A DNA stretch of 64,000 nt from Escherichia phage phiWec187. Numbering within the stretch: the first letter of the stretch is position 1; every line of letters starts with the position of its first letter. The stretch is taken from sequence record LC739536.1, one strand, 5' to 3'. Made by a program: the position numbers and the translations under genes. The notes under the pieces are model-generated. The model saw only the letters and a list, made by a program, of their open reading frames with translations, was not told where the DNA came from and did not search any database. This document shows, in pieces, positions 24,781-47,109 of this stretch.

Positions 24781-25453
24781 ATTTTTGAGCCTCCTCATAA
24801 GAGATAAAAGTTTTACCATTGCGAAGATCCTCCAGTGATTGTTTATATTGTTCCCAGTTTACACCAATCCCCTGTTCTTTCTCTTCTTTTGACAGATTTG
24901 CAAAAGGTAAAGGATTGTCTCCAAACACATCGTCAGGATGGATAAACGCCATAATTCGAATAGGACATGGTACGCCGTGAATACCTCGGTTCAAACCTGC
25001 AAGTGGAACGCGCTGAATCCACTCTGCATCTTCATATCCATAACCGTGGGTGTATGAGCGGAAATAGCCAGCTTTCTCAATAACTGCACGGGAATACATA
25101 CCAAACTGGCACATGCCTAGCTCCCAAATAACTACTTCTCCTTCAATACCTTTTACTTTATCTTTAAAGTATTCAGGCATACCAAAGAAATCCCAACCAT
25201 TTTCCTTCGCCTGTTTTACAAAATATGTTTCCCAACCTGGAACAACAGGATAACAATCATCATCAAAAATAAACCAGTAGTCATACCCTTCATCATAAAA
25301 CTTTTTCATCAGTTCATTACGGGCATATGCAACACCTTTTCGTTCACGATCATACTGTACAACAAAAGTAGCATTAGGATCAGTTACAAGATAATCTTTA
25401 AGAGGACGCTTACCTACAGTAATAACACCAACACCAATTTTTGTATTTTCCAA
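24767..25453 (-). CDS. glycosyltransferase (GT-A/GT2-like)
   Basis: WFIFDDD (DxD-type) and GYGYEDAEW motifs typical of GT-A fold transferases. Confidence 0.55.
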   Translation of the reverse strand: MENTKIGVGVITVGKRPLKDYLVTDPNATFVVQYDRERKGVAYARNELMKKFYDEGYDYWFIFDDDCYPVVPGWETYFVKQAKENGWDFFGMPEYFKDKVKGIEGEVVIWELGMCQFGMYSRAVIEKAGYFRSYTHGYGYEDAEWIQRVPLAGLNRGIHGVPCPIRIMAFIHPDDVFGDNPLPFANLSKEEKEQGIGVNWEQYKQSLEDLRNGKTFISYEEAQKYGKS

Positions 25454-27377: not shown

Positions 27378-27980
27378 TTAGATATTGTAAACCTTCGTAT
27401 GAGTTACTACACCATCTTCTACAAAATCAATACGTTCTTGATCCGTAACTAGTGCAGACAACACTTTAAATTTAATTTTTACACGTTCAAAAGCTGGTTG
27501 ACCATCTTTAAGATAATTATGTTCGGTTGTCACTGTCTTGTTTACAAAATCAACTTTCGCTTTACCGTTTTCGCGTAGGTGGAATGTTTTTCCTGCTTTG
27601 TACACAATTTCAACATTACCTTCGAGAATAATTCCTTCAAAAAGTTCACCCTCTTCTTCATTTTCTTCACTTTTGAACAGACGACGAAACTCTTCCATAT
27701 CAAGATAAACAACATCTTCAGAATAACTATCAGTAAGGTATGTCTTACCATCCATTAACCCGAAATATTGCCAGATCGCAGAATAAACATCACTAGTTGA
27801 TCCAAGGGTTTCTCTGAGTTTAGTTCCACGGATTACTTCATAAACTTCAAAATTGAAACCAGACTGCAAAGCATCAAACAGTACATCACTAACTTCTACA
27901 GCATAATCTTGATTGTTGTCAACATCCACAAGAAAATTGCCGCTACGAATAAGTTTTTGACCTTCTAAAGTAATACCCAT
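27378..27980 (-). CDS. hypothetical protein
   Basis: 200-aa ORF adjacent to TerD. Confidence 0.4.
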   Translation of the reverse strand: MGITLEGQKLIRSGNFLVDVDNNQDYAVEVSDVLFDALQSGFNFEVYEVIRGTKLRETLGSTSDVYSAIWQYFGLMDGKTYLTDSYSEDVVYLDMEEFRRLFKSEENEEEGELFEGIILEGNVEIVYKAGKTFHLRENGKAKVDFVNKTVTTEHNYLKDGQPAFERVKIKFKVLSALVTDQERIDFVEDGVVTHTKVYNI

Positions 27981-27999
27981 TGTTTTCTCCTCTTTTATT

Positions 28000-28024
28000 T
28001 AAAATATGCGCCCCGAAGGGCGCT
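28000..28024 (-). terminator. rho-independent terminator after the TerD gene
   Basis: gcgccc-cgaa-gggcgc hairpin followed by a U-run on the minus strand. Confidence 0.55.
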
Positions 28025-28032
28025 ATGATTTA

Positions 28033-28629
28033 TTACTCGAACCAATCGTCGCCAGCGCCAAACGCTTTAACTACATCGTAAATGTCAAGCCCAGCTTTAC
28101 CCACACCATACGCTTTCAGTTTCCATTCGCTATCTTCTCGCACCAGGGAGGCAACGTGGCAAATGGTGTTACCTGCAAGTTCTGGAGCCAAGAAGTCAAA
28201 GTCCAGCAGTTCAACATTACGTTCATCATCGAAGATTTTAAGGAAACCTTCGGTAGCGTGACCAAGGCGTTTCTTACCCGTTTCGTCATCAATAGTAATT
28301 ACGAATGCAATTTCCTGTGCTTCAGCAGAGATATTATCCAGTGTAACATCAATCTGCTCCATCTGTCCTACACCATCACGAACATCTTCACCTGCAAAAG
28401 TAGAACGTTCAGGATCAAATTTCTGCGCGTAGCACACCAGGTGACGAGGAGACAACAGTTCCGGCAGACCAGATGCATTGTGTCGGCAAATCAGAGCACT
28501 AACATCCAGATCCAGTTTTTCGTTAGATTTCCAAGAGAATTCCAGACGAATGCGTTTCAGTGCTGGTGCAATCTTTTTCAGAGAAACTTTTTCGCTAGAA
28601 CCTTTTTTCAGGGAAATTTTCTGAGTCAT
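28033..28629 (-). CDS. terD: TerD-family protein
   Basis: Aligns by eye along its length to TerD: SLKKGSSEKVSLKK, LDLDVSALIC, IAFVITIDD, SEWKLKAYGVGKAG against SLSKGGNVSLSK, FDLDASAFLL, IIFVVTIHD, GEWKFRAVGQGYAG. Confidence 0.8.
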   Translation of the reverse strand: MTQKISLKKGSSEKVSLKKIAPALKRIRLEFSWKSNEKLDLDVSALICRHNASGLPELLSPRHLVCYAQKFDPERSTFAGEDVRDGVGQMEQIDVTLDNISAEAQEIAFVITIDDETGKKRLGHATEGFLKIFDDERNVELLDFDFLAPELAGNTICHVASLVREDSEWKLKAYGVGKAGLDIYDVVKAFGAGDDWFE

Positions 28630-28701
28630 AATTTATTATCTCCTTTGTTGTTAATTTACGTTGTCTATTTTACTAATCTTTTCTACAAAGTCAAGCGTTT
28701 T

Positions 28702-29496
28702 TTACGCTTTTGCTCCAAATTTTTTAACCCACTCACCAAACTCTTCGGATAGCAGTTTATCGTAAAGTTCTTCGTCAGACAAGGACAAATCTGCAATACC
28801 GATAAAATCAACATTATCGTATTCTTTTGCCAAGTCTTTCAGGAATTTAAAGTTTGCATTACCTACACCAACCATAAACCAGTAAACAGGCGTATTGCGG
28901 TGTTTGTTCAGTAAGCTACGTACTGCTGAAGTATCCATGTTCTCCCCGTCAGTTTGGAAGAAAATCATTGCAGGAGTACGATCAACTTGTGCATCAGTAT
29001 CTACAACCTGTTCTACAACAGTACGTGTTACTTCTACAAGTTCTTTTTTACCAGTTAGTTTAGCAAGGAAACCTTTAGCCGGAACTTCTTCATACTCAAC
29101 GACTTCGCGTGTAATATTTTTCATAGGTACACTACCGAAGTATGTATCATAGATCTCTTGCATTACTGGAGCATAAGCAGTACCACCGTTGATGCAAACA
29201 TTAGACATGCAAGAGCCGACATAATCATCATACACATCAGCCGTTGCAGGAGGCAGTTCAAAAGAAGAACTATTGAAAGCCCACATGTCAATCTGTGCAT
29301 TATCATCAAACTTCATACCAAACGGCAGTAGCTTACCTACAAAATCACTGACAGTGCCATCACGATATAGCTCACACATACTACCCGAAATATCTAAGGC
29401 GCTACCGACACGAAGAACAACATCGTTAATCTTTTTCTTACGCAGAGATACAGTAAGAGTCTCTTGACGTTTTTTAAGACTGATTTTATTGGACAT
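28702..29496 (-). CDS. vWA-domain protein (TerY-like)
   Basis: MIDAS motif DISGSM plus downstream FFQTDGENMD (TDG motif); N-terminal ISLKK..LTVSLRKK resembles the TerD N-terminus. Confidence 0.6.
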   Translation of the reverse strand: MSNKISLKKRQETLTVSLRKKKINDVVLRVGSALDISGSMCELYRDGTVSDFVGKLLPFGMKFDDNAQIDMWAFNSSSFELPPATADVYDDYVGSCMSNVCINGGTAYAPVMQEIYDTYFGSVPMKNITREVVEYEEVPAKGFLAKLTGKKELVEVTRTVVEQVVDTDAQVDRTPAMIFFQTDGENMDTSAVRSLLNKHRNTPVYWFMVGVGNANFKFLKDLAKEYDNVDFIGIADLSLSDEELYDKLLSEEFGEWVKKFGAKA

Positions 29497-29497
29497 A

Positions 29498-29767
29498 TTA
29501 TTTCTCCTTTTTGACTGTAATGTTAGTAACTTCTAAATCCACTTCTACCACTTCTATATCATATAAAATACAGTTAAGTTGACCTCTTTGTGAACCGTTC
29601 AGACACATTGCTTGGTTTGTATTAACCTTAATAAACACTAAGTTTCTGAACGTATCTAAACCAGCATCTTGATAGGCAAAATAATATACAAATGTATCAC
29701 CTGCGTCAAGTTCTCCAAAACATTTAGGTTCATATGATTCGTCGTCTTTGATATTAAATTTAAGCAC
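29498..29767 (-). CDS. hypothetical protein
   Basis: 89-aa ORF. Confidence 0.35.
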   Translation of the reverse strand: MLKFNIKDDESYEPKCFGELDAGDTFVYYFAYQDAGLDTFRNLVFIKVNTNQAMCLNGSQRGQLNCILYDIEVVEVDLEVTNITVKKEK

Positions 29768-30323
29768 TATCTTCTCCTTTACCTACTTTCAAGCCTAAAT
29801 AGAAAGCCTCTCTAGTGATTTTTTGCAACTCGTTTAAAGAGATAGTTACAACTAAATCATCTTCAATTTCTAGCTTTGAGTCTTCTTCTGTCTCAATGCA
29901 AGTATTATGCACTTTGTGGTAAGGATTGTCAACACGTTTAAATTTATTATTTTCAGTGCTGAAGAAGCAATCTGGATCTTCTTCCACATCACCCCAACCC
30001 TGGTTAGGATCTTCTTCAGATCTTTCTGTTGGGATCTCACCTGTAAAGTGCTCTTCTAATACCAGAGCAATCCCATCTCCAGGATCGGAAGAGAACATCA
30101 AATTACAAACTTCTTCCCAAGGCATAGACCACTTAAATCTTTTACGATTGCCATGTTTATCTTCTTCGTTAGAGAAAACACTACCATAGCTATCATAATT
30201 CCCATACATCTCTTCGACAACCTTACCACCTTTCAAAAGAAATAGGTAGCAAGGAGAGCCATCGAAAGAGGTAGAAAGAGCAGCATTACCAGACTCTTTG
30301 CACAAGAAACTAAAACACCCCAT
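29760..30323 (-). CDS. hypothetical acidic protein
   Basis: 187-aa ORF. Confidence 0.35.
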   Translation of the reverse strand: MGCFSFLCKESGNAALSTSFDGSPCYLFLLKGGKVVEEMYGNYDSYGSVFSNEEDKHGNRKRFKWSMPWEEVCNLMFSSDPGDGIALVLEEHFTGEIPTERSEEDPNQGWGDVEEDPDCFFSTENNKFKRVDNPYHKVHNTCIETEEDSKLEIEDDLVVTISLNELQKITREAFYLGLKVGKGEDSA

Positions 30324-30523
30324 TATACACCAGCCTTAAGATCAATTAAAGCCAAAGTTGTTTCAGAGTGTGTTTGCTCGTCTACAGGTGCAGTCATATG
30401 ATAATACAAAAAATCTTCGGCATCATACCAATCTGATTCTTGACCTTGTTTCCAACCATCAATGAAAGCATCTTCCATAATGGTTTGCAATTCTTCACGA
30501 GTTAAGTGAATATCTTTACTCAT
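30323..30523 (-). CDS. hypothetical small protein
   Basis: 66-aa ORF, translationally coupled. Confidence 0.3.
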   Translation of the reverse strand: MSKDIHLTREELQTIMEDAFIDGWKQGQESDWYDAEDFLYYHMTAPVDEQTHSETTLALIDLKAGV

Positions 30524-30756
30524 TACACATTCTCCTCTTTTACCAAGTCCATCGTTGAACTATCAAAACCATCTTTAGAAGAATAGGTATAGACAGAACG
30601 TAGTTCTCGCAGGACAGTGAATACATTAGGATCATCTAACCAAGCATCCTGGAGGAGAACATAACGATCTTCATTGTCATACTGAACAGCAATCATAGAA
30701 CCAGACAGTTTGTAAATTTTAATATTCATAATATATTTCTCCTTAAAGTAGACCAC
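30523..30756 (-). CDS. hypothetical small protein
   Basis: 77-aa ORF. Confidence 0.3.
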   Translation of the reverse strand: MVYFKEKYIMNIKIYKLSGSMIAVQYDNEDRYVLLQDAWLDDPNVFTVLRELRSVYTYSSKDGFDSSTMDLVKEENV

Positions 30757-31846
30757 GTTTAACAGTTTGAATCATACCATCTTCAAGAGATTGCACTTCT
30801 TGAATGTAATCAATACGCGCAGCACGGGCTTCAGTGTTGATTCGGTTAGTTTCTTCCAACATTTTAACTAAGTTTTCTTGATCGCGACGTAATGTTTCAA
30901 TATCCAATACTTGACGATTAGCAAGTTGTGTAGCTTCAATTTGGTTTTGTGCAGCCAGATCACTACCCATTGCAATAGCAGCATTAAATTCATTCAGCAC
31001 ATTGTTCTGTGTATCGGCTGCTTTCTTCTGGCGTAGACTTTCAATATACATAGAAAAGTTTGCAGAGTAAGCAGGGATAACATTATTCACAATATTACGG
31101 GCTGATCGCATCAAACTTGCAGATACTTTCTGCATACTTTGTACACGTGGCCCCATCTGAACACACAGTAAACGCAAGGCTTTCAGGTCTGCAATACGAA
31201 TTTCAAGCAGATCCATAGTATCACGAGTACGTTGACGCTCTTCTACTTCATTTTCAGGTAGTGTATTAAGGCGAACTTCTTCTTTTTCATAAGTAGCTGT
31301 TAGAAGCTCTATATCCCTGTTTAAGCTAAGAGCATATTTTGCAATAGCCTCTTCTAAACGTTGCAGATATCGTAAAGAATCTTCTTCTTTTTTCAAGTCT
31401 GTTTGTAGTGTCTTTACCAAACCTTCAATACGATTATTGATGGTGTCAAATTCACCAAACAAATCTTCTTTCATACCTAATACTTTCTTAACCAGTTTAC
31501 CTAAGCCTTTAGATTGTTTAATAGAGTTAGGATCAAGTTGCTTTGCTTGCTTAATAAGTGCAGTTAAACGTTCACTCATTTCATCCCCCTGAGATGAACG
31601 CTGGTGTTTAAGCACTTCAGCATTAAGGTTACGAAGAGTAAGTCCTGCATCAGCACCAACTTGTTCAATCTCTTCACGAGACATTGGAGGCAGCATTTGT
31701 ACAGGTCGTGCAACAGCAGGGGCATATACAGGGCTTGCATCCATAGCACTTGGAGCAAACAAAGACTTACTTTTTTCTGTTGTTGCCGTGAATACACTCA
31801 TTTCAGACGGTTTGCTTTTTACGGCACTGATAAAAGGACTGGACAT
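30743..31846 (-). CDS. coiled-coil protein, possibly TelA-like
   Basis: 367 aa, mostly helical/coiled-coil; size and neighbourhood (TerD, vWA, TerC) fit TelA but no motif was verified. Confidence 0.3.
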   Translation of the reverse strand: MSSPFISAVKSKPSEMSVFTATTEKSKSLFAPSAMDASPVYAPAVARPVQMLPPMSREEIEQVGADAGLTLRNLNAEVLKHQRSSQGDEMSERLTALIKQAKQLDPNSIKQSKGLGKLVKKVLGMKEDLFGEFDTINNRIEGLVKTLQTDLKKEEDSLRYLQRLEEAIAKYALSLNRDIELLTATYEKEEVRLNTLPENEVEERQRTRDTMDLLEIRIADLKALRLLCVQMGPRVQSMQKVSASLMRSARNIVNNVIPAYSANFSMYIESLRQKKAADTQNNVLNEFNAAIAMGSDLAAQNQIEATQLANRQVLDIETLRRDQENLVKMLEETNRINTEARAARIDYIQEVQSLEDGMIQTVKRGLL

Positions 31847-31914
31847 TCAATTTCCTCCGTATTCTTTAGTAGATGGTGATACCTCTGTACCACCATCATA
31901 ACACAAATTAAGTA

Positions 31915-32766
31915 TTAAACAAACATATCTAAATAATTTGTAGTAATAAATGCTCCATCTGCTTCCAGATTAACATAACCAGTAGCATTAGTGGTTAAGA
32001 AATCCAGATCGAAGGACTCTTTAACACCCCGTACCTCAACACGAGAGATATCGAATACAGGTAGTGTAACAGCCTCTTCGTGCAATACCGTACCTTTGTA
32101 GGTTGCCTTAATGATAAACTTGATATTACCCGTTCCAGCATCATACAAAACACTTTCAAACCCTTTGAGAGTATACTTATCACCAGAAGTGAAGTGCAAA
32201 GTTGCTTTGTTTACAGTACGTTTTTTACGAGGAGTTCCTTTCACACGTTTATGATCACTACGTTTTTTGTATTTAGGAATGAATACAAACGATACATTGT
32301 GAAGAAAGGTATCAACATCAAGGATTTTAATATCCTCTGTTGCAGCAAATTTTGAAGTTGTTGCATCAAAATGCTTTTCCCGGCGATCATACATAAAGAT
32401 ATCAAACCGATCTTCTAAATCAAACAAATTATGTATTTTAATTTCAGAATGCTTGCGCATTGCAGCAACCTTGAACTCTTCAAAACGTGGGTGTTCTACA
32501 AGTTCTTCAAGTTTTACACCAAAGACAGTATATTGCTTCGGAGTTTTTTCTGGTGTTGGCATTACAGAAGCATAATCACCGATTGCGCTCTTAAAGCAAA
32601 ATTGTTCTTGACCTGTATTTTTACCAACGAATTTACAGTATTCGTCATCGTGCATACTTTCCTGGGTAGTACCAACAAACTCAAAACCATCTTTATTCTT
32701 CTCAAGAATTTCTTGATTAAAGATCCAACCTTCCAGGCGATATACTTTACCAACTTCTAGTTTCAT
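31915..32766 (-). CDS. hypothetical protein
   Basis: 283-aa ORF. Confidence 0.4.
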   Translation of the reverse strand: MKLEVGKVYRLEGWIFNQEILEKNKDGFEFVGTTQESMHDDEYCKFVGKNTGQEQFCFKSAIGDYASVMPTPEKTPKQYTVFGVKLEELVEHPRFEEFKVAAMRKHSEIKIHNLFDLEDRFDIFMYDRREKHFDATTSKFAATEDIKILDVDTFLHNVSFVFIPKYKKRSDHKRVKGTPRKKRTVNKATLHFTSGDKYTLKGFESVLYDAGTGNIKFIIKATYKGTVLHEEAVTLPVFDISRVEVRGVKESFDLDFLTTNATGYVNLEADGAFITTNYLDMFV

Positions 32767-32801
32767 CTGTTTCTCCTTCTTATTTAATCTGTATTAAATT
32801 A

Positions 32802-33392
32802 TTAACGACGACGTGAGCTACTAAAACTACGTTTCGACGAAGAATAACTTTTCGAAGACTTACTATAAGAGCTAACAGGACTTGAGTAAGACTTACCAGC
32901 AGAGTAATCACTATTCACTTTTGTTGTTGATGGGCGTGAATACGTTTGTACACTTTGCTGCTTAATTGTGTTTTGTTTAGTGGTTGTATATGTATTTCCT
33001 TGTTTATCATAAAAACTATGCTTTTGTGTTGTATATGCTTTACTATTAGTTGTAGGAGCAGCGTTGTTATTGATAATTGTTGTATTGCTACCGCCATCTC
33101 TATAACCACCACCGCCACTATTACCACTCAACATATGACCAAGAAGCATACCTGTAGCGAACTCACCTACGCCAGAAGAACCACTGCCGCCTCCTTGAAC
33201 AACAACTGTTGAAGGTTGTGCAGGTGCTGCTTGAACAACTTGAGGTGCAGGCTGATTTACATATTGTTCATCTACCATCTGATTTGGTGTTTGTTGGTAA
33301 CGTTGGTTTTGTACATTTTCAGAATCATCACAACCTACCAGCAATGCACTACCTAATACAACTGCAACAATAAAAGATTTAATGTTTTTCAT
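32802..33392 (-). CDS. lipoprotein, low-complexity Ser/Gly/Thr-rich
   Basis: Start at MKNIKSF after GAGAGGG; signal peptide with lipobox LVGC; C-terminal Ser/Tyr/Lys-rich tail. Confidence 0.5.
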   Translation of the reverse strand: MKNIKSFIVAVVLGSALLVGCDDSENVQNQRYQQTPNQMVDEQYVNQPAPQVVQAAPAQPSTVVVQGGGSGSSGVGEFATGMLLGHMLSGNSGGGGYRDGGSNTTIINNNAAPTTNSKAYTTQKHSFYDKQGNTYTTTKQNTIKQQSVQTYSRPSTTKVNSDYSAGKSYSSPVSSYSKSSKSYSSSKRSFSSSRRR

Positions 33393-33585
33393 TTGTAACC
33401 CTCTCATTTAAAGTCTCAACACAATTTTTAAAATCTCTAGAGAAACAATACATCTGTTCTCCGTTCCTGTTGATAGTAATTGTATGGTTATCAATATATG
33501 TTGTCAAGATAAAAATCAAACAAAACAACCCTAGAGCAAAACAAATATTTTCAAACAGAATCCAAAGAACACGTAAAACCACCAT
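33379..33585 (-). CDS. small membrane protein
   Basis: 68 aa with hydrophobic stretch FALGLFCLIFILTTYI. Confidence 0.3.
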   Translation of the reverse strand: MVVLRVLWILFENICFALGLFCLIFILTTYIDNHTITINRNGEQMYCFSRDFKNCVETLNERVTNEKH

Positions 33586-33624
33586 CAGATCACCTCAATA
33601 AAGCCCCCGAAGGGGCTTAATGAA

Positions 33625-34602
33625 TTAAGCAACAGCCTGGTCTTCTTTTTCAGGGAAGATTAAACTTGCAATAACACCCAGCCCAAGAGTACCTAACACA
33701 ATATACATACTGATCGTCGGATCAATGTGTGCTGGTAGGAAACTCACTTTTGCGTGCAGAGTTTCTGCAAACGGATGATACATCAGTTTTACACCCACAA
33801 ATACCAGGACTACGATAACTGCTTTCTCCAGATGAACCAAATACTTCAGTGCAACACTAAGAACAAAGAACAGAGCACGTAAACCTAAGATAGCACAGAG
33901 CATCGAAGAGAACACCAGCAGAGGTTCTTGTGTCACTGCAATCACTGCTGGAACAGAGTCTACTGCAAAGATTACGTCAACCATTTCCATTACAAACACA
34001 CAAACCAGAGCCGGAGTTGCTACACGAACACCATTTTTGATTGTGAAGAACTTCTCACCATCCATCTGATCAGATACAGGGAACAGCTTACGAACAATGC
34101 GAGTAGCCCAGTGTTTAGAGTAATCAACTTCTGCATCATTATCTCCAGCGAATACCATTTTAGCCGCACAGAAAAGGATGACCGCACCGAAGAAGATATT
34201 AACATACCAGCCCAAACTCAACAAGTAAGTGCCTACTGCTACAAACACACCTCGGAAGACAATCGCACCTGCAATACCCCAAAGTAGAATCTTGTGCTGC
34301 AAGTGTGTGCTTTTAATACCAAAACTTGCGAATACTGCCACAAATACTACTAAGTTATCTACAGAAAGAGATTTCTCCAACACATACCCACTTAAGAACA
34401 AGCTCGCAAAATCAGCACCGTGTTGGAAGTATACAAAACCATAGTAGGCTAATGATACCCCAATCCAGAAAATTGACCAGCCAATTGCAGATTTAAATGA
34501 AATTTCTTTGTTTTCTCTGTGTCCAAAGAAATCAATACAAATCGACAAGACTAAAATACCCACTAAAACAACCACATCAATAATTGGGAAACCCAGTTGC
34601 AT
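33625..34602 (-). CDS. terC: TerC-family integral membrane protein
   Basis: Multiple TM helices plus the two TerC signature blocks LEKSLSVDNLVVFVAVF and VIFAVDSVPAVIAVTQEPLLVFSSMLCAILGLRAL. Confidence 0.8.
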   Translation of the reverse strand: MQLGFPIIDVVVLVGILVLSICIDFFGHRENKEISFKSAIGWSIFWIGVSLAYYGFVYFQHGADFASLFLSGYVLEKSLSVDNLVVFVAVFASFGIKSTHLQHKILLWGIAGAIVFRGVFVAVGTYLLSLGWYVNIFFGAVILFCAAKMVFAGDNDAEVDYSKHWATRIVRKLFPVSDQMDGEKFFTIKNGVRVATPALVCVFVMEMVDVIFAVDSVPAVIAVTQEPLLVFSSMLCAILGLRALFFVLSVALKYLVHLEKAVIVVLVFVGVKLMYHPFAETLHAKVSFLPAHIDPTISMYIVLGTLGLGVIASLIFPEKEDQAVA

Positions 34603-34679
34603 TCTTTTCTCCTCTTTAATGCGGAGGACAATCCTCCGCTCTATGTCTTATACTATAAACTGTTTTTAAAGAAAGTCAA

Positions 34680-34928
34680 CTAGTTCAGTTCTGTAATTTT
34701 AAGTTTATCTTCTTTGTTAATGATAGGGAAAGCTACAGCATCACCTACATCATCAATAAAGCAAATAGCAAGACCACCTTCCACTTTGCTAACCTGACCA
34801 TTAAAGGCATGATACGGGGCAGGAACTTCATCTCCATCTTCAATGAGAATAGCCTCGTAAACCTTGCCGATAGTACAATCACGGGTGTTTATAAATTTTT
34901 CAAGCACTTCAACATTTACTTTACGCAT
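34680..34928 (-). CDS. hypothetical protein
   Basis: 82-aa ORF. Confidence 0.35.
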   Translation of the reverse strand: MRKVNVEVLEKFINTRDCTIGKVYEAILIEDGDEVPAPYHAFNGQVSKVEGGLAICFIDDVGDAVAFPIINKEDKLKITELN

Positions 34929-34942
34929 ATAAAGATCCTCTC

Positions 34943-35149
34943 TTATTTGTTAGATTGAAAGATACCACGGAGTACCGCAAGAATGAACGTCACACAGACT
35001 ACACTCCAAAACGTTACAGGAACATGATGCCAGTCTAAGCCGATAATGTCAATCATATAATTGTATGCTAAAAGCAGTAGCCAACTAGGGATTAACACAA
35101 TCAAGAACACAACAATAAAACAACCTAATACTGCTAAAACACCTGCCAT
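34943..35149 (-). CDS. small membrane protein
   Basis: 68 aa, two predicted TM helices. Confidence 0.35.
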   Translation of the reverse strand: MAGVLAVLGCFIVVFLIVLIPSWLLLLAYNYMIDIIGLDWHHVPVTFWSVVCVTFILAVLRGIFQSNK

Positions 35150-35158
35150 ACTTTCTCC

Positions 35159-35875
35159 TTATTTCAGTTTGTAAACAATTACATTTAAACCTTTGTTTAC
35201 TAGAGTTTCTTCGATCATAAGTTTTACAATATTCCAAGAACCTCCAGCCAAACCACAACCAAGCATTGGTAAACCTACAATTTTACCGCCTGAAGATACA
35301 ACATCGTCTCCCATACTATCTAGCGCATTGTAGATAGCTTCATAATTCAGGTCACGCTTACCTTCCTCACGACGACTATAACCATATTGTCCATATAAAT
35401 TATAAATTGTCAAATTGTTTTCTGTATATTTGGTAAACGTACCTAATTTTTTATAATCACCACGTTTAGTGGCACAATCTGCTTTAAACGCACCAGGCCA
35501 CTTGCTTTTAATTTTTGGTGCAATACCACTACCCATAGTGCAAAAACAGTTACAGCAGTGTGCTATAGCGTCTATATCGCCTCTCTCGGCTGCTGCTAAA
35601 AGATCACCGTATACCTCAATGATACCTGCTGGATAACTTGTTACAATTTCATCTTCCCAGTACATTTTCTCTACACCACCGATCAGTGCAAAGTTTTGTG
35701 TAATGCGATCATCAATATAGTTAAGCCCTGAAACATACACAGCGTATTCATCCTGTGCTGTAATACCTTGCACACGAATTCTTAAGACACCATCTTTATC
35801 TGTTGCTACACGCCCAAAATCTTTTTCTGTAATATTGGTGATAGGATCTCCGAAAGTCATTACTTTATTAGACAT
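35159..35875 (-). CDS. macro-domain protein (ADP-ribose binding/processing)
   Basis: AIAHCCNCFCTMGSGIA and GLPMLGCGLAGG resemble the paired Gly-rich loops of macro domains; start at ATG 35875 after AAAGGGGA. Confidence 0.55.
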   Translation of the reverse strand: MSNKVMTFGDPITNITEKDFGRVATDKDGVLRIRVQGITAQDEYAVYVSGLNYIDDRITQNFALIGGVEKMYWEDEIVTSYPAGIIEVYGDLLAAAERGDIDAIAHCCNCFCTMGSGIAPKIKSKWPGAFKADCATKRGDYKKLGTFTKYTENNLTIYNLYGQYGYSRREEGKRDLNYEAIYNALDSMGDDVVSSGGKIVGLPMLGCGLAGGSWNIVKLMIEETLVNKGLNVIVYKLK

Positions 35876-36725
35876 AATAATCCCCTTTAACATTAGATTT
35901 GTTGATAATGTTGCTTTCAAAAAATTGACGTAGGAAATCAAAGTTCTCTTTGTATTTTTCAATGTTATTGTAACCTTCTGCAAGGCAACCAAAGAACAGT
36001 TGTTCTACATAATACAAAGGAAGTTGTGAAAGTGCAATTTTAAAATCAACTTCGCTTTGACTCATTAGATACTTAATAGGACGAACCAAACATTTAGCAT
36101 CAGTTTCTTGCTTAATCATTTTAATAAAAGCTGCCAGATTATTGATATAGTTGAAGTTAAGTGCAGCTTCGGTATTGGCTTCTGTACCTTCATACTTTGC
36201 AAAGTACAGGAAAAACGTATCGTTTTCAACACCTTCTTTGTCTAAAATTTCAATAAGTTTTTCTTCGTGTGTTCCTGTAATATTAACATCATCAATGAAA
36301 ATCAGAGTTTTATTACCCCAGAAATCACGATTGATAGAGAAAGTGTCACCATCGATCAAAGCCTTACGATCTTCTTTGCTAAGAAATCCATAATCATTGA
36401 TATAACTCACTTTACGATGAACGATATCCCACTCCACTGCTTTACCTCCTTTGATAGAGATTAGGTAGTTGAGGTGATCTACAAAATGCTCAGATAACAC
36501 TGTAGCTGCATTTTTCACATAATTATATGGAGATGGAATAACAACAAAACTTTCATTTACTAGTCGTTCTTCATATTTAGAAAAGAAACTTTCAGCTAGA
36601 ATGCGTCCCATTCTTTTTGCTGCCTGGTTACTGCCAAACTTTAGTTTGGAATAATCTGCAATGTTAAATTTTGCTTCCTTCAGGTTAGTAAAAGTATTAG
36701 CAAAATGTTGAATTTGATTACGCAT
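35868..36725 (-). CDS. phosphoribosyltransferase-like protein (type I PRTase fold)
   Basis: TLIFIDDVNITGTHEE matches the PRPP-binding motif (hydrophobic run, DD, xxTGxT). Confidence 0.5.
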   Translation of the reverse strand: MRNQIQHFANTFTNLKEAKFNIADYSKLKFGSNQAAKRMGRILAESFFSKYEERLVNESFVVIPSPYNYVKNAATVLSEHFVDHLNYLISIKGGKAVEWDIVHRKVSYINDYGFLSKEDRKALIDGDTFSINRDFWGNKTLIFIDDVNITGTHEEKLIEILDKEGVENDTFFLYFAKYEGTEANTEAALNFNYINNLAAFIKMIKQETDAKCLVRPIKYLMSQSEVDFKIALSQLPLYYVEQLFFGCLAEGYNNIEKYKENFDFLRQFFESNIINKSNVKGDYYV

Positions 36726-37392
36726 TAATAAGTTCCTCTTTTTTAAGTTTAGCCAACAAGTCTTCTGGATTAATAATATGACAGAACTTCATCCCTATGT
36801 CAACAGCTTTTCCATCATAAATCAAACTATCTCCAACGTGTAAAATCTCCTCTGGTGCGAGATCAAACGTTACCATTTCATCAAAAGAGAGTTTAAAAAA
36901 CCTAGGATCTGGTTTACACAAGCAAAACTCATCAGAAAAATGCATAAAGTCAAATGGTAATTTTGTTAAGCCAGAATATACAGCTAAGAAACTACCTGGT
37001 ACAAAATTAGTATTGCTCTTAATACTCAAAGAATAGGTTGAACTTAGCTCTTCCAACTTCTTGCAAAGTTCAGGGTTCAATATTGGAGGATGTTTTATAA
37101 ACATTGCTAAACAGTCTCTTTTTAACCCATCCACTTTATCAAGATCAATGTTCAAACGAGTAGAAAGTGTTTCCCAAGCATTCCTAGACGTTCCACAAAT
37201 GCCTTTTTCTGCTTTTAAATCCAGGAGAGTTTTTACCTCTTTATATACGGTAGCTGCTTCTGCCTCAGAACAAGAGGCATACTCGGCAATAACCTTGTTG
37301 CGTTCTTCTGCATACAAAGGATTAGCAGTAATAAGAGTATTCCATACATCAAAAGAAATATGCTTAACAGTCATTTTTAATCCTCCGTCCAA
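36718..37392 (-). CDS. HAD-like hydrolase
   Basis: N-terminal ISFDVWNTL (variant HAD motif I) and C-terminal ILHVGDSLIYDGKAV (GDxxxD motif). Confidence 0.4.
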   Translation of the reverse strand: MDGGLKMTVKHISFDVWNTLITANPLYAEERNKVIAEYASCSEAEAATVYKEVKTLLDLKAEKGICGTSRNAWETLSTRLNIDLDKVDGLKRDCLAMFIKHPPILNPELCKKLEELSSTYSLSIKSNTNFVPGSFLAVYSGLTKLPFDFMHFSDEFCLCKPDPRFFKLSFDEMVTFDLAPEEILHVGDSLIYDGKAVDIGMKFCHIINPEDLLAKLKKEELINA

Positions 37393-37543
37393 AAGAATAT
37401 CATCTGCTTAATTTTATTGATCTCTTGATGTAGTAACTTTCCAGCATGTGATTGATCTTTAATATTGACAGCAAGAATTTCAAGCTCCGTTAGTTTTTCC
37501 TGTATAGCTTTATATTCATCATCTGTAAGCATTTTCTTCCCCT

Positions 37544-37747: not shown

Positions 37748-37777
37748 ATAAATAAAGGAGGCTTTCGCCTCCTTTTA
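37746..37777 (-). terminator. rho-independent terminator after the ATPase gene
   Basis: aaaggaggc-tttc-gcctccttt hairpin with U-run on the minus strand. Confidence 0.55.
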
Positions 37778-38962: not shown

Positions 38963-39433
38963 TTAGTCAGATTCCCAAATGTTGTCTTTCTTAATCCACA
39001 TTCGTTGATTATCTGAACCTCTATAACGTTTCGTTGTTGGTTGATTCATATCATACTTACCATCTATCACTATGTCAACCAGTTTTTTAATTTTTTCTGG
39101 AATTTCCTCAAAAAGATATCCTGTATATAAGACAATATCTTTTTTGTTTCCAAAACAATCTCTTACCTTCTCAAGAACATACTCTACAGTGTCAATGTTC
39201 TCTTTGTCAAGAGGTTCACCACCTAAAACTGTTAATCCTTTAATGAAAGGTCGAGATAAATCTTTCAAGATAAGATCTAATGTTTCAGTAGTGAACTCTT
39301 GTCCGTGGTTATACGACCAGGCTTTCTGGTTAAAGCAGCCACGGCAACCGTGGCTACAACCGCTCACCCACAAAGAGCATCTTACACCGTCACCGTTGAG
39401 CATGTCAACAGGTTCATATCCGGCGTAATTCAA
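38963..39433 (-). CDS. nrdG: anaerobic ribonucleotide reductase activating protein (radical SAM)
   Basis: CSLWVSGCSHGCRGC Cys cluster near the N-terminus; 156 aa; immediately downstream of nrdD. Confidence 0.8.
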   Translation of the reverse strand: MNYAGYEPVDMLNGDGVRCSLWVSGCSHGCRGCFNQKAWSYNHGQEFTTETLDLILKDLSRPFIKGLTVLGGEPLDKENIDTVEYVLEKVRDCFGNKKDIVLYTGYLFEEIPEKIKKLVDIVIDGKYDMNQPTTKRYRGSDNQRMWIKKDNIWESD

Positions 39434-40371
39434 AAATGTTTCTCCCTTTCTAGTACCTCTTGCATTTTACCTTTATTATAGGGGCGAGAGTTAGGGGCAG
39501 AAAGGTATCCTGACACTCTTCTGATCACAGATATGGATTCTTCTTCATGATTGCCACAACTTGGACACTCGAAGCCTTTAGCCGTTGCTTTAAATTCACC
39601 ATGAAAACCACATTTGAAACACTGATCTACAGGTTGGTTCACACCAAAATAAGGAATTTTGTTGTAGGCATAATCTACAAGAGTTTCCAGTGCTTGCAAG
39701 TTATTTTTAAGGTTTGGTGTTTCTACATAACCTATGTTCCCACCATTACTGATTTGTGCAAAACCTTCCTCATAATCCCACTTTTGGAACGGGGTAGTGT
39801 GCATCCATACAGGTTGATGGAAAGAGTTTGTCAAGTAGTCACGATCAATAGAACCAGGATAGCGATCATTTAATGCTTTGGCAAATTTATAGCACAAGGA
39901 TTCTGCTGGTGTTCCATACAAACTAAAAGCTAAACCAGAACGTTCTTTAAATGTGCCACAGATATCCTTCATATATTGAAGGATGTTTTTACCCATTGCT
40001 TTTGTATTGGTGTTACCTGGGTATAAAATCTCCATAGCTTCTGCTAAACCTACATAACCGATACTAATAGAGGCATAACCACCTTCGAATAGTTTACCAA
40101 TCTCTTCATTAGCTTCTAGTCGAGCTAAAGCCCCTTCCATAAACAATGTAGGGTTTTGAGATGCTTTGGTATGTCTAATACGGTTAACACGTAGCATATG
40201 TGCCTTATACGCCATCTCCATATGTTGTTCCAACAGTTCAGTAAATAAGATGCCCTTTTCACGGGACTCTGCTGCAATGATAGGTAAGTTTAAAGAAACC
40301 ACGCCTAAGTTGAAACGACCATCATATTTTTCACCTTGCTCTGTTGCGTAGTATGACAAGAAACTTCTACA
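39430..40371 (-). CDS. nrdD: anaerobic ribonucleoside-triphosphate reductase, exon 2
   Basis: Begins CRSFL; contains C-terminal zinc ribbon (CFKCGFHGEF...CPSCGN) and glycyl-radical motif RRVSGYL. Confidence 0.8.
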   Translation of the reverse strand, partial: CRSFLSYYATEQGEKYDGRFNLGVVSLNLPIIAAESREKGILFTELLEQHMEMAYKAHMLRVNRIRHTKASQNPTLFMEGALARLEANEEIGKLFEGGYASISIGYVGLAEAMEILYPGNTNTKAMGKNILQYMKDICGTFKERSGLAFSLYGTPAESLCYKFAKALNDRYPGSIDRDYLTNSFHQPVWMHTTPFQKWDYEEGFAQISNGGNIGYVETPNLKNNLQALETLVDYAYNKIPYFGVNQPVDQCFKCGFHGEFKATAKGFECPSCGNHEEESISVIRRVSGYLSAPNSRPYNKGKMQEVLEREKHF

Positions 40372-41140: not shown

Positions 41141-41998
41141 ACCCATGCTTGTGACGCGACCATCTGAAGATCCTGTAACTTCTTTGTTTAAAGGTACAGA
41201 GATAAAATCAGGATAAATGCGTTCAGCACAACACTCCATTGCCAGTTGCTTCAAATCATAGTTTGGATCGCCAGCTTTCATGTTAACACCATCTTCCAAG
41301 AAGAAGATAACTTTAGGAAACACAGGAGTTACCCTATCTTTTCCTAATCCTTGTTTGTGCACCATTAGGTAGTTTTTAGTGATCATTCTACCAAAAGCAG
41401 AGGTATCCAAGCCTAAACTAATTGTTATAAAAGGTGACTGACCATTTACACTCATTAGGGTGTTCACCTGGTAGATTAAAGTTTGCATTGCATCATAAAC
41501 CTGTTTATCTACCATACGCATAGCAATATCATAATCGCCAACATCGGCGTATATTTTATTAAAACTTGCTTTAACGTATTGACTAAGCCCAGTATCAATA
41601 TGTGCACAAGTTTGTCCACCATATTGGCTAGAAGCTACTGCTTGAATAATTTGAGTTAGGACAGTAGTTGCTACACCGATAGATTTTGGTTTTTCAATAT
41701 GTGCATTACCAATACGGAAACCGTTCTCAAGCATATCTTGGTAATTTACCAGGCAACAATTAGTTAGAGGTGAGAGTAAATAATCTAAATCGTGAATGTG
41801 ACCATACCCACTTTTATGCCATTCTGCCAGATCTTCCGGTAAAATATGGGTCATTGCCATGTGCTTGCTTAGGATACCTGCTAGTAAGTCTCGGTGAGTA
41901 TTAACAATCATTGCAGGTTTGTTTGCATTTTCACGAGTAAATTCTTCGGATGTTTGTTCGAGGAATCCGATTACATCCTCATATAGTTTTTGGGTCAT
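41141..41998 (-). CDS. nrdD: anaerobic ribonucleoside-triphosphate reductase, exon 1
   Basis: 286 codons ending ...GRVTSMG at the 5' splice site; the listed ORF reads 2 codons into the intron before a stop. Confidence 0.8.
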
Positions 41999-47108: not shown

Positions 47109-47109
47109 T

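What the first reader, a model, noticed from the sequence alone, without database searches (positions are those of the whole stretch)
27378..37392. Phage-encoded Ter-like module: TerD, vWA TerY-like, TerC, PRTase, HAD, macro domain
A co-oriented 10-kb block combines a clear TerD, a vWA TerY-like protein, a 367-aa coiled-coil protein of TelA size, a TerC membrane protein with both signature blocks, a type I phosphoribosyltransferase, a HAD-like phosphatase and a macro-domain protein. In bacteria, TerD/TerC/TelA/TerY operons are tied to PRTase and HAD enzymes predicted to make a nucleoside-like metabolite as part of a stress or anti-phage response. Finding the set inside a virulent phage, next to its nucleotide-metabolism genes, suggests the phage runs this pathway itself, possibly as counter-defence or to modify nucleotides. 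The function of this combination in a phage is unknown.
Basis: partly seen in the sequence, partly recalled or inferred. Interest (0 to 1): 0.85.

Follow-up and report, generated by a model that had tools for sequence, protein, structure and literature searches.

The report
Ter stress module in phi92-like phage
A lytic E. coli phage of the phi92 group carries a conserved operon of bacterial "tellurite-resistance" (Ter) stress proteins plus a two-enzyme pair predicted to make a nucleoside-like compound. The genes are real and under selection, but the set is already annotated in these phages, has been described for other phages, and has no tested role in infection.

Summary
Profile searches confirm TerD, a TerF-type vWA protein (not TerY), TelA, a TerC/Alx membrane protein, a ComF-like type I PRTase (PRTase_3), an HAD-family hydrolase and a macro domain, all on the minus strand between 28033 and 37374.

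The window is a Justusliebigvirus (phi92-like) phage. The block corresponds to phi92 gp171-gp187, is 98-99% identical in over 50 phage records, and is collinear in the sister genus Phapecoctavirus.

The block is best read as three parts:
- **Enzyme pair:** the HAD gene lies directly upstream of the PRTase in nearly every complete homologous locus examined.
- **Ter set:** TerD, vWA, TelA and TerC recur next to that pair, in shuffled orders, in unrelated large phages and in Bacteroidota genomes.
- **Macro domain:** this family occurs in about 2,900 phage records and is linked to the pair only in this lineage.

Phage-borne Ter systems with PRTase and HAD enzymes were described by Iyer et al. (2021), who proposed superinfection exclusion. 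The finding is therefore a correct re-discovery rather than a new kind of system. Function remains experimentally untested. DNA modification is disfavoured because these phages are highly sensitive to restriction-modification systems.

The parts
37754..37775 (-). Terminator-like hairpin (AAAGGAGGC-GAAA-GCCTCCTTT followed by ATTTAT) after the AAA ATPase gene; proposed upstream boundary of the unit
   Evidence: annotated as a terminator in phage Paula
37544..37747 (-). Small ORF (67 aa), first gene after the terminator; conserved in Phapecoctavirus; no domain found
37377..37532 (-). Small ORF (51 aa), no domain; found only in Justusliebigvirus
36718..37374 (-). HAD-IA family hydrolase with motif I D-V-W-N-T (Trp in place of the usual second Asp). 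Its end overlaps the PRTase start by 8 nt
35868..36725 (-). ComF-like type I phosphoribosyltransferase (PRTase_3) with an intact PRPP loop (IDDVNITGTHE)
35159..35875 (-). Macro-domain protein of the SCO6735/BT1257 subgroup of TARG1/DarG-type macrodomains, with an N-terminal extension. A neighbour in this lineage, not a Ter component
34943..35149 (-). Small hydrophobic protein (68 aa, about 2 transmembrane segments by eye), conserved in Phapecoctavirus
34680..34928 (-). Small ORF (82 aa), no domain
34621..34679 (-). Sigma-70-like promoter (TTGACT-16-TATAGT) followed by a leader hairpin that keeps pairing through compensatory changes in three phage lineages, upstream of the TerC ribosome-binding site
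   Evidence: phAPEC8 record annotates a host-dependent promoter at the same place
33625..34602 (-). TerC/Alx-family integral membrane protein with both acidic signature blocks (LEKSLSVDN; MEMVDVIFAVDSVPA)
33379..33585 (-). Small membrane protein (68 aa)
32802..33392 (-). Predicted lipoprotein (lipobox LLVGC) with a low-complexity Ser/Thr/Gln-rich tail
   Evidence: sequence read; conserved in related phages
31915..32766 (-). 283-aa protein of unknown function (phi92 gp179); only its C-terminal part is conserved outside the genus
30743..31846 (-). TelA-family protein, predicted all-helical
30323..30756 (-). Two small ORFs (77 aa and 66 aa), no domains
29760..30323 (-). 187-aa protein of unknown function (phi92 gp175). 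76% identical in phAPEC8, but absent from the Justusliebigvirus contig L030
29498..29767 (-). 89-aa ORF, fast-evolving (2 synonymous and 11 non-synonymous differences against phage Paula)
28702..29496 (-). vWA protein of the TerF C-terminal type with a complete MIDAS motif (D-I-S-G-S, then a Thr and an Asp)
   Evidence: motif read
28033..28629 (-). TerD-domain protein. The D-x-D site is kept; the second acidic Ca2+ loop is shortened. A sigma-70-like promoter lies at 28667-28694
28008..28023 (-). Terminator-like hairpin (GCGCCC-TTCG-GGGCGC followed by ATATTTT) just after the TerD stop codon; proposed downstream boundary
27378..27980 (-). 200-aa protein (phi92 gp171), no domain and not TerD-like. 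Membership uncertain; a weak homologue lies inside the Ter cluster of viral contig L038

Best explanation
**Identity (confidence about 0.95).** This is the Ter-type operon of Stephanstirmvirinae phages, equivalent to phi92 gp172-gp187. It joins a translationally coupled enzyme pair, HAD then PRTase_3, to a membrane-proximal set of TerC, TelA, a TerF-type vWA protein and TerD. A lipoprotein and small membrane proteins are interspersed.

**Mechanism (inferred; the stated confidence refers to this part).**
1. The unit is transcribed early or in the middle of infection, partly from sigma-70-like promoters.
2. The PRTase joins an unknown base to PRPP. The HAD enzyme then processes the phosphorylated product, giving a nucleoside-like small molecule. 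This is the pathway predicted by Anantharaman et al. (2012).
3. That product acts together with a metal-dependent assembly of TerD, vWA and TelA at the inner membrane around TerC.
4. The net effect is a change in the envelope and ion state of the infected cell. This would exclude superinfecting phages and colicins, which are the classical Ter phenotypes, and would keep the cell competent until lysis.

The macro domain is a separate, widespread phage ADP-ribose-processing gene that happens to sit next to the pair in this lineage.
For: **Shown here**
- All domain families are confirmed.
- The block is 98-99% identical in 54 phage records covering at least 80% of it, and collinear at 49-81% amino-acid identity in phAPEC8.
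- About 131 phage records carry each of TerD, TelA, TerC and the PRTase at subfamily-level identity.
- Selection is strongly purifying. Synonymous/non-synonymous differences against phage Paula are TerD 13/0, vWA 19/1, TelA 18/0, TerC 14/2 and PRTase 19/0.
- HAD lies immediately upstream of the PRTase in all 18 viral-contig loci and in 15 of 16 genome loci; the sixteenth, L025, is a 325-bp fragment.
- Ter genes lie within 10 kb of the pair, in shuffled orders, in 6 of 13 viral loci outside the Stephanstirmvirinae-like group (L034, L038, L040, L042, L043, L047), in phage-like contigs L008 and L009, and in Bacteroidota contigs L027 and L028.
- Linked and unlinked loci interleave across the PRTase tree.
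- Motifs are intact: the PRPP loop DDVxITGT is invariant; the HAD nucleophile Asp, Lys and GDxxxD are present; the MIDAS and TerC blocks can be read.
- A sigma-70-like promoter and conserved leader hairpin precede TerC. Terminator-like hairpins bracket the unit.
- The operon also encodes a lipoprotein and small membrane proteins.

**From the literature**
- Ter systems confer resistance to phages and xenobiotics, and superinfection exclusion has been proposed for phage-borne Ter systems (PMC7824862; PMC8386662).
Against: - No experiment exists for any phage Ter gene; five targeted literature searches found none.
- The HAD-PRTase pair also occurs alone. Examples are Rhizobium plasmid pRL10 and 7 of 13 viral loci with no Ter gene within 10 kb. 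It therefore does not strictly need Ter proteins nearby.
- In CcrColossus the nearest TerD gene is 27 kb from the pair, and in XaC1 it is 165 kb away.
- The HAD enzyme has Trp at the Asp+2 position, where canonical HAD phosphatases have their general acid/base residue. The simple nucleotidase step is therefore uncertain.
- The second Ca2+-binding loop of TerD is shortened in this lineage.
- The product, its target and any protein complex are entirely inferred.
- The TelA model has low confidence (pLDDT 60) and gave no significant fold match.
Confidence: 0.4

Rival explanations
1. Host-physiology maintenance, in the manner of an auxiliary gene. TerC/Alx exports Mn2+ or Ca2+, and TerD, TelA and vWA buffer envelope, oxidative or metal stress. 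The infected cell therefore stays metabolically productive, with no role against competing phages.
For: - TerC scores well above the cutoff of the TerC/Alx metal-homeostasis subfamily.
- TerC occurs alone in many 75-90 kb phages of Cronobacter, Proteus, Pectobacterium and Vibrio.
- Gut jumbo phages transcribe TerD operons strongly and carry a Ca2+ P-type ATPase (PMC12880540).
- A P-type cation ATPase follows the HAD-PRTase pair in bacterial contig L027.
Against: - It does not explain why an enzyme pair that consumes PRPP is repeatedly embedded among the Ter genes.
- No metal riboswitch or other Rfam element is present in the window.
- No phenotype data exist.
Confidence: 0.25
2. Counter-defence. 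The HAD-PRTase pair removes or mimics a host immune nucleotide signal, or diverts PRPP. The Ter proteins blunt membrane-targeting abortive-infection effectors. The macro domain reverses defensive ADP-ribosylation such as that by DarT.
For: - The macro domain's only PADLOC and NCBIfam match is DarG, and its closest solved relatives are SCO6735, BT1257 and TARG1.
- The block is in the early/middle region.
Against: - No protein other than the macro domain matches any PADLOC model.
- The macro family is independent of Ter genes. It lacks the TARG1 Lys84/Asp125 pair, having Gln and Ala instead, and scores 48 bits against the DarG cutoff of 250.
- The stand-alone pair on rhizobial plasmids and the bacterial Ter-linked pairs argue for a function that the cell itself owns, not one specific to countering defence.
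Confidence: 0.15
3. Not one functional unit. The HAD-PRTase pair is an independent two-gene cassette, and TerD, vWA, TelA and TerC form a separate module. Their adjacency here reflects common insertion into a variable region of the genome.
For: - The pair occurs alone on Rhizobium pRL10 and in 7 of 13 viral loci.
- Separate promoter-like sites precede TerC and TerD.
- Many small, fast-evolving ORFs are interspersed.
Against: - The pair lies between or beside Ter genes in several unrelated arrangements. In L042 the order is TelA-HAD-PRT-vWA-TerD. In L034 and L040 the pair sits between vWA and TerD. In L038 and L043 it directly follows the Ter genes.
- The same linkage is seen in Bacteroidota.
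- Linked loci are spread across the PRTase tree.
Confidence: 0.15
4. Nucleotide or DNA modification. The PRTase and HAD enzymes make a non-canonical nucleotide precursor that ends up in phage DNA or the nucleotide pool.
For: - The block lies next to nrdD and nrdG.
- In some phages the pair sits near adenylosuccinate-synthetase-like genes.
Against: [quoted passage not shown]
- A phosphatase step would lead away from dNTPs.
- No kinase, glycosylase or polymerase partner is conserved with the pair.
Confidence: 0.05

Closest known systems
Enterobacteria phage phi92 gp171-gp187 and the same block in other Justusliebigvirus and Phapecoctavirus phages (for example Paula, PaulScherrer/Bas60, phAPEC8)
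   Same: Same genes in the same order, 98-99% nucleotide identity within the genus and 49-81% amino-acid identity in phAPEC8. Deposited annotations already read "putative stress protein", "stress/toxic anion resistance protein", "membrane bound tellurium resistance protein", "orotate phosphoribosyltransferase", "phosphatase" and "hydrolase", or "macrodomain", "phosphoribosyltransferase" and "HAD-like".
   Different: Essentially nothing differs. This window is another isolate of that group. The annotations name the genes one by one and do not treat them as a system.
[quoted passage not shown]
   Same: TerD, TerC, TerF-type vWA and TelA together with PRTase and HAD signal-biosynthesis enzymes, encoded by lytic phages. 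That paper proposes a role in competition with superinfecting phages.
   Different: That paper concerns jumbo phages and does not name the phi92 group. Here the genome is about 146 kb and the whole set is compacted into one 9.7-kb unit. I did not compare the ME3 genes directly.
Klebsiella phage phiKp34 Ter-like cluster (PMC8386662)
   Same: The paper reports terC, a terF-type vWA gene, terD and telA homologues as a cluster in a roughly 141-kb myophage. Its TerC is 68.8% identical to the one in this window (H224).
   Different: The paper does not mention a PRTase-HAD pair. It reports two terD genes against one here.
Bacterial Ter-linked biosynthetic neighbourhoods (Anantharaman, Iyer and Aravind 2012), for example Tannerella contig L027
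   Same: A homologous HAD (D-x-W-x-T) followed by PRTase_3, adjacent to TerD genes.
   Different: The bacterial cluster has three TerD paralogues, TerY-type vWA proteins with a TerY_C domain, a PP2C phosphatase, a Ser/Thr kinase and a P-type ATPase. It has no TelA. The phage PRTase is only about 32% identical to the bacterial one.
Classical terZABCDEF operon of IncHI2 plasmids and E. coli O157 islands
   Same: TerC, TerD and a TerF-like vWA protein are present. The only DNA-level similarity to E. coli genomes is a 167-195 nt stretch of terC at about 70% identity.
   Different: No TerZ, TerA, TerB or TerE paralogues. TelA, which belongs to the separate kilA/telAB system, is present instead. The classical operon has no PRTase or HAD.
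Bacillus subtilis yceCDEFGH operon (from my own knowledge: TerD paralogues, TerC-family YceF, TelA-family YceH)
   Same: The combination of TerD, TerC and TelA in one operon.
   Different: It has no vWA, PRTase or HAD genes. I did not compare it here.

Membership tests
Ter stress-response system sensu Anantharaman et al. 2012 / Iyer et al. 2021 | TerD-domain protein | tested here: met
   PF02342, E 5e-28; solved TerD 2kxt at 8.6e-15 over residues 5-180
Ter stress-response system sensu Anantharaman et al. 2012 / Iyer et al. 2021 | TerC-family membrane protein | tested here: met
   PF03741, E 1.2e-38; TIGR03718, 322.8 bits against a cutoff of 246.4; both acidic motifs read
Ter stress-response system sensu Anantharaman et al. 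2012 / Iyer et al. 2021 | TelA and TerF-type vWA sub-membrane components | tested here: met
   PF05816, E 5e-34, and PF10138, E 1.2e-38; MIDAS D-x-S-x-S motif present
Ter stress-response system sensu Anantharaman et al. 2012 / Iyer et al. 2021 | Linked PRTase plus HAD biosynthetic enzymes | tested here: met
   PF15610, E 1.1e-41; HAD adjacent with an 8-nt overlap; homologous pair next to TerD in bacteria
Ter stress-response system sensu Anantharaman et al. 2012 / Iyer et al. 2021 | Ca2+ binding by TerD through two acidic loops | tested here: inconclusive
   D-x-D (D40, D42) and D82, G86, E91 are conserved, but the GDNxTGEGDGDDE-type loop is shortened to GEDVRDGVGQMEQ
Ter stress-response system sensu Anantharaman et al. 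2012 / Iyer et al. 2021 | [quoted passage not shown] | not testable with these tools
   Requires genetics and metabolomics
Classical terZABCDEF operon | TerB, TerA, TerZ and TerE paralogues alongside TerC and TerD | tested here: not met
   Only one TerD-domain ORF and no TerB hit among the 20 ORFs scanned against Pfam
TerY-P triad (vWA TerY + PP2C phosphatase + Ser/Thr kinase) | TerY-type vWA protein with phosphatase and kinase partners | tested here: not met
   The vWA protein matches the TerF type. There is no PP2C or kinase domain in the block, and PADLOC reported no match for the vWA protein at E up to 0.01. The bacterial contig L027 does have the triad
Type I phosphoribosyltransferases | PRPP-binding loop and PRTase core fold | tested here: met
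Canonical HAD phosphatases | Motif I D-x-D-x-T, with the second Asp as general acid/base | tested here: not met
   Motif I reads D-V-W-N-T. Trp at Asp+2 is present in all 25 PRTase_3-linked HAD ORFs in which the motif could be read, bacterial ones included; three naively called or truncated ORFs gave no read. The nucleophile Asp, the Lys and GDxxxD are present
DarG antitoxin / TARG1 macrodomain hydrolases | TARG1 catalytic Lys84/Asp125; DarT-binding C-terminal domain in DarG | tested here: not met
   The aligned positions are Gln and Ala, as in SCO6735 and BT1257. NF048014 scores 48 bits against a cutoff of 250 and covers only profile positions 4-147
Macro domain superfamily | Macro fold at the sequence-profile level | tested here: met
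   PF01661, 30.8 bits against a cutoff of 22; PDB 5e3b, 2fg1 and 2afc at about 4e-15

The most novel reading that the evidence does not exclude
The HAD(D-x-W-x-T)-PRTase_3 pair is a mainly virus-borne two-enzyme cassette that makes a previously unknown nucleoside-type small molecule by non-canonical HAD chemistry. In phi92-like phages this molecule would work with TerD, vWA, TelA and TerC as a phage-encoded chemical and membrane system. That system would exclude rival phages or disarm membrane-targeting abortive infection. It would be a viral small-molecule pathway and would finally give the Ter system a mechanism.
Probability: 0.2. Interest if true: 0.75.

Novelty: already known. Interest (0 to 1): 0.35.

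Why it matters
[quoted passage not shown] The predicted nucleoside-like metabolite has never been identified.

Phi92-like phages pack a minimal, strongly conserved version into one unit of about 9.7 kb. It contains one TerD, one vWA protein, TelA, TerC and the HAD-PRTase pair. These phages infect E. coli K-12 (BASEL phages such as PaulScherrer/Bas60), so they are a tractable system for deletion genetics and metabolomics.

The finding itself is a correct re-identification of something already annotated and already discussed. Its value is as a model system, not as a discovery.

Details added here that may help design experiments:
- The HAD gene sits directly upstream of the PRTase gene in nearly every locus examined.
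- The paired HAD always has Trp at the Asp+2 position of motif I.
- The pair can occur without Ter genes, for example on a rhizobial plasmid.
- The macro domain is independent of the Ter module.

Tried and rejected
- **Key paper unavailable.** The full text of Anantharaman et al. 2012 (PMC4104200) is not held. Its content is cited only through Iyer et al. 2021 and from memory.
- **TelA structure.** The AlphaFold model had low confidence (pLDDT 60). Foldseek gave only generic helical bundles such as BAR domains and ClyA/AhlC-type toxins, at E of 0.004 or worse and TM of 0.33 or less. I treat this as uninformative.
- **gp171 as a hidden TerD.** Profile-profile comparison gave a probability of 0.1%, so this was rejected. 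Its Cupin_3 hit is below threshold.
- **Riboswitch before TerC.** No Rfam family reaches threshold anywhere in the window. Only a simple conserved hairpin is present.
- **Defence-system membership.** PADLOC matches nothing except a DarG-like macro domain and a spurious Cas12g hit at E 0.003.
- **PRTase substrate.** No PDB sequence relative exists. Fold matches are too distant to assign a base (12-17% identity).
- **AlphaFold database search.** The afdb50 library was not available.
- **Literature.** Five targeted searches found no experiment on any phage-encoded Ter, PRTase_3 or paired HAD protein.
- **Recent capture from the host.** Rejected. TelA relatives above 38% identity all lack a bacterial name and sit on phage-sized or short contigs, and the named bacterial TelA proteins are at most 27% identical. 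E. coli genomes share only a short stretch of terC at about 70% identity. The block's base composition matches its flanks.

Full report
**What the window is.**
The region 27378-37392 is 97.9-99.1% identical over its full length to Escherichia phages Antha, muut, Paula, PaulScherrer and many others. Of 91 matching phage records, 54 cover at least 80% of it. These phages are Justusliebigvirus (phi92-like) myoviruses of the subfamily Stephanstirmvirinae. The block corresponds to phi92 gp171-gp187. All genes lie on the minus strand. GC content (0.35-0.39) and GC skew match the flanks, so nothing suggests a recent foreign insertion. Upstream lie nrdD, nrdG and an AAA ATPase. Downstream lie a cell-wall hydrolase and glycosyltransferases.

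**Checking the observation.**

| Gene | Coordinates | Best evidence |
|---|---|---|
| TerD | 28033-28629 | PF02342, E 5e-28; solved TerD 2kxt at 8.6e-15 |
| vWA | 28702-29496 | PF10138 vWA-TerF-like, E 1.2e-38 |
| TelA | 30743-31846 | PF05816, E 5e-34 |
| TerC | 33625-34602 | PF03741, E 1.2e-38; TIGR03718 TerC/Alx, 322.8 bits (cutoff 246.4) |
| Macro | 35159-35875 | PF01661, E 3e-7 |
| PRTase | 35868-36725 | PF15610 PRTase_3, E 1.1e-41 |
| HAD | 36718-37374 | PF00702, 25.8 bits (cutoff 26.4); nine HAD-IA NCBIfam hits; PDB 2om6 at 8.9e-9 |

Four corrections apply.
- The vWA protein is of the TerF C-terminal type, not TerY.
- The 200-aa ORF at the low-coordinate end has no recognisable domain.
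- The macro gene most likely starts at 35875.
- The HAD gene most likely starts at 37374, as in the deposited annotations.

Motifs readable in the translations are intact. These are the MIDAS motif D-I-S-G-S in the vWA protein, both acidic TerC blocks, the PRPP loop IDDVNITGTHE in the PRTase, and a lipobox (LLVGC) in the 196-aa protein between TerC and TelA.

**Conservation.**
Protein searches of the phage collection find TerD in 147 records, the PRTase in 156, TelA in 245 and TerC in 176. In each case about 131 records match at subfamily-level identity, namely the two genera Justusliebigvirus and Phapecoctavirus. In phAPEC8 the gene order is the same: nrdG, small ORF, HAD, PRTase, macro, small membrane protein, TerC, small membrane protein, lipoprotein, part of gp179, TelA, small ORF, gp175, small ORF, vWA, TerD, endolysin. 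Amino-acid identity is 49-81%.

Against phage Paula, the block shows 143 synonymous and 47 non-synonymous differences, an overall pN/pS of 0.09. Per gene (synonymous/non-synonymous) the counts are TerD 13/0, vWA 19/1, TelA 18/0, TerC 14/2, PRTase 19/0, macro 6/0 and HAD 7/5.

**Anatomy of the unit.**
- A strong terminator-like hairpin follows the AAA ATPase gene (37775-37754). Another follows the TerD stop codon (28023-28008). Together they bracket about 9.7 kb.
- Inside the unit, sigma-70-like promoters precede TerC (TTGACT-16-TATAGT, 34679-34652) and TerD (28694-28667). The phAPEC8 record independently annotates a host-dependent promoter at the TerC position.
- Between the TerC promoter and its ribosome-binding site lies a hairpin. 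Its stem differs in sequence but keeps pairing in three lineages.
- No Rfam family, including metal riboswitches, matches at threshold.
- HAD and PRTase overlap by 8 nt, and PRTase and macro also overlap by 8 nt.

**Which genes belong together.**
I collected relatives of the PRTase from phage records, IMG/VR contigs, metagenome contigs and GTDB genomes.

The HAD gene sits immediately upstream of the PRTase in all 18 viral-contig loci. It does so in 15 of 16 genome loci as well; the sixteenth, L025, is a 325-bp fragment. The same holds in XaC1, Rhizobium phage TM61, CcrColossus and Kabachok. This pair is therefore the tightest unit.

It can stand alone, as a two-gene operon on Rhizobium johnstonii plasmid pRL10. 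In 7 of the 13 viral loci outside the Stephanstirmvirinae-like group, no Ter gene lies within 10 kb.

In the other 6 of those 13 loci, Ter genes flank or enclose the pair in different orders.
- L042: TelA-HAD-PRT-vWA-TerD.
- L034 and L040: TelA-vWA ... HAD-PRT-TerD.
- L038: TerC-x-vWA-TerD-TelA-HAD-PRT.
- L043: TerC, TerD, vWA, then the pair.
- L047: TerD, then the pair.

The phage-like contigs L008 and L009 show the same association.

In Bacteroidota contigs the homologous pair follows TerD genes. In the Tannerella contig L027 the order is three TerD genes, three vWA genes (the third with a TerY_C domain), PP2C, a kinase, HAD, PRTase_3 and a P-type ATPase.

On a rough neighbour-joining tree of the PRTases, Ter-linked and unlinked loci interleave. 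In CcrColossus TerD lies 27 kb from the pair, and in XaC1 it lies 165 kb away. Recurrent linkage in shuffled order is good evidence for a functional connection.

The macro domain behaves differently. Its family is present in 2,933 phage records, including T4-like, Felix O1-like and PAK_P1-like phages. It sits next to the pair only in Stephanstirmvirinae-like lineages. I treat it as a neighbour, not as a Ter component.

**The enzymes.**

The paired HAD enzyme has the nucleophile Asp, the motif III Lys and GDxxxD. Its motif I, however, reads D-x-W-x-T. Trp occupies Asp+2 in all 25 PRTase_3-linked HAD ORFs in which the motif could be read, bacterial ones included. It is also present in the closest solved protein, 2om6. 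Canonical HAD phosphatases use Asp+2 as the general acid/base, by established knowledge. Calling this enzyme a simple nucleotidase is therefore an inference, not a demonstrated fact.

**The Ter proteins.**
- **TerD.** It keeps the D-x-D site but has a shortened second acidic loop compared with K. pneumoniae TerD and with other phage TerDs. Ca2+ binding is therefore uncertain.
- **TelA.** Relatives above 38% identity all lack a bacterial name and sit on phage-sized or short contigs. The named bacterial TelA proteins are at most 27% identical.
- **TerC.** The only similarity to 5,426 E. coli genomes is a 167-195 nt stretch at about 70% identity to terC of the ter operon.

The module is therefore an old phage lineage, not a recent capture from the host. 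The TelA structure model was too poor to use.

**The macro domain.**
Its closest solved relatives are SCO6735, BT1257 and human TARG1. Its only PADLOC and NCBIfam match is DarG, far below the family cutoff. At the TARG1 catalytic positions Lys84 and Asp125 it has Gln and Ala, like SCO6735 and BT1257. A role in removing ADP-ribose is plausible from family knowledge. That role is separate from the Ter question.

**How it most likely works.**

Shown:
- the identities of the proteins;
- the operon-like layout, with early-type promoters;
- the strict HAD-PRTase coupling;
- the recurrent linkage of the pair to Ter genes;
- intact motifs and purifying selection;
- several envelope proteins encoded in the same unit.

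Inferred:
- The PRTase couples an unknown base to PRPP, and the HAD enzyme converts the product to a nucleoside-like molecule. This is the 2012 prediction, relayed.
- That molecule works with a metal-dependent TerD-vWA-TelA assembly at the membrane around TerC.
- The outcome is an altered envelope and ion state of the infected cell. This would exclude superinfecting phages and colicins and sustain the cell until lysis.

This is the hypothesis of Iyer et al. 2021 for phage Ter systems. I consider it the best supported reading, at about 0.4.

Rivals:
- Stress or metal-homeostasis support for the infected cell (0.25).
- Counter-defence (0.15).
- Two unrelated cassettes that happen to be adjacent (0.15).
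- Nucleotide or DNA modification (0.05). This is disfavoured because BASEL phenotyping found phi92-like phages and relatives exceptionally susceptible to restriction-modification systems.

**Comparison with what is known, and novelty.**
The deposited phi92-group annotations already label these genes as stress, tellurium-resistance, phosphoribosyltransferase, phosphatase/macrodomain and HAD proteins. A 2015 metagenome paper lists Phi92_gp172, gp173 and gp178 as tellurium-resistance proteins. The phiKp34 paper describes the terC, terF-vWA, terD and telA cluster in a related Klebsiella phage. Iyer et al. 2021 describe phage Ter systems complete with PRTase and HAD enzymes in jumbo phages and in "certain other related smaller tailed phages".

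The block is a member of the Ter system in the broad comparative-genomic sense. It is not a classical terZABCDEF operon, because TerB, TerA and TerZ are absent. It is not a TerY-P triad, because there is no TerY-type vWA protein, PP2C or kinase. The finding is therefore already known as a kind and as an instance. What remains open is the function, for which I found no experiment in five targeted searches.

**Verdict.**
Novelty is "already known". Interest is modest (0.35), mainly because this compact module in a phage that infects E. coli K-12 is a practical entry point to the long-unsolved Ter mechanism.

Noticed in passing
window 39430-41998 (minus strand): nrdD is split into two ORFs: 41132-41998 (NRDD profile positions 1-263) and 39430-40401 (positions 263-562). 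An HNH/NUMOD homing-endonuclease-like ORF (40524-41033) lies between them. A sub-threshold Rfam group I intron hit lies at 40422-40529 (39.2 bits, E 2.6e-8). Phage Paula has an uninterrupted 1800-bp nrdD. This looks like a mobile group I intron carrying a homing endonuclease.
   Followed up: partly
window 44334-47147 (minus strand): A UvrD-like helicase (937 aa) carries Hint/intein-splicing signals within residues 267-613, suggesting an intein insertion.
   Followed up: no
window 33625-34602, compared with Phapecoctavirus records: TerC alleles are mosaic between genera. Some Phapecoctavirus phages (Mt1B1_P17, tuntematon, vB_EcoM_REC) carry a TerC about 95% identical to the Justusliebigvirus allele, whereas most have about 71%. 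This implies recombinational exchange of this one gene.
   Followed up: partly
window 34621-34639 (minus strand), upstream of TerC: A GC-rich hairpin lies between a sigma-70-like promoter and the TerC ribosome-binding site. It keeps base pairing through different stem sequences in three phage lineages. Its role (mRNA stability, attenuation or an antisense terminator) is unknown.
   Followed up: partly
window 36718-37374; loci L004-L047: The HAD enzymes paired with PRTase_3, in phages and bacteria alike, have Trp at the Asp+2 position of motif I (D-x-W-x-T). The archaeal structural-genomics protein 2om6 has it too. This suggests a distinct HAD subfamily with atypical chemistry.
   Followed up: partly
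L029 (Rhizobium johnstonii 3841 plasmid pRL10, record positions 107669-109142): The HAD-PRTase_3 pair occurs as an isolated two-gene unit on a conjugative rhizobial plasmid and in several Rhizobium, Sinorhizobium and Ensifer genomes. No Ter genes are nearby. Related pairs occur in Rhizobium phages.
   Followed up: partly
phage records MG065639, MG065645, MG065656, MG065689: Records named "Campylobacter phage" A150, A145, C3 and A110a are 98.3% identical to this E. coli phage block over its full length. They are probably mislabelled or contaminant genomes.
   Followed up: no
window 29498-29767 (minus strand): The 89-aa ORF between gp175 and the vWA gene shows 2 synonymous and 11 non-synonymous differences against phage Paula (pN/pS 1.38), unlike its neighbours. 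It is either evolving fast or is not a real gene.
   Followed up: no
window 24767-25453 (minus strand): A glycosyltransferase-like ORF has a sub-threshold match to the TET-associated glycosyltransferase family (PF20691, 23.3 bits against a cutoff of 27.5). It is one of a run of glycosyltransferase genes downstream of the block.
   Followed up: no
L030 (IMG/VR contig, Justusliebigvirus) compared with window 29760-30323: One otherwise near-identical phage contig lacks the gp175-like 187-aa gene, so this conserved unknown gene is dispensable in at least one isolate.
   Followed up: no
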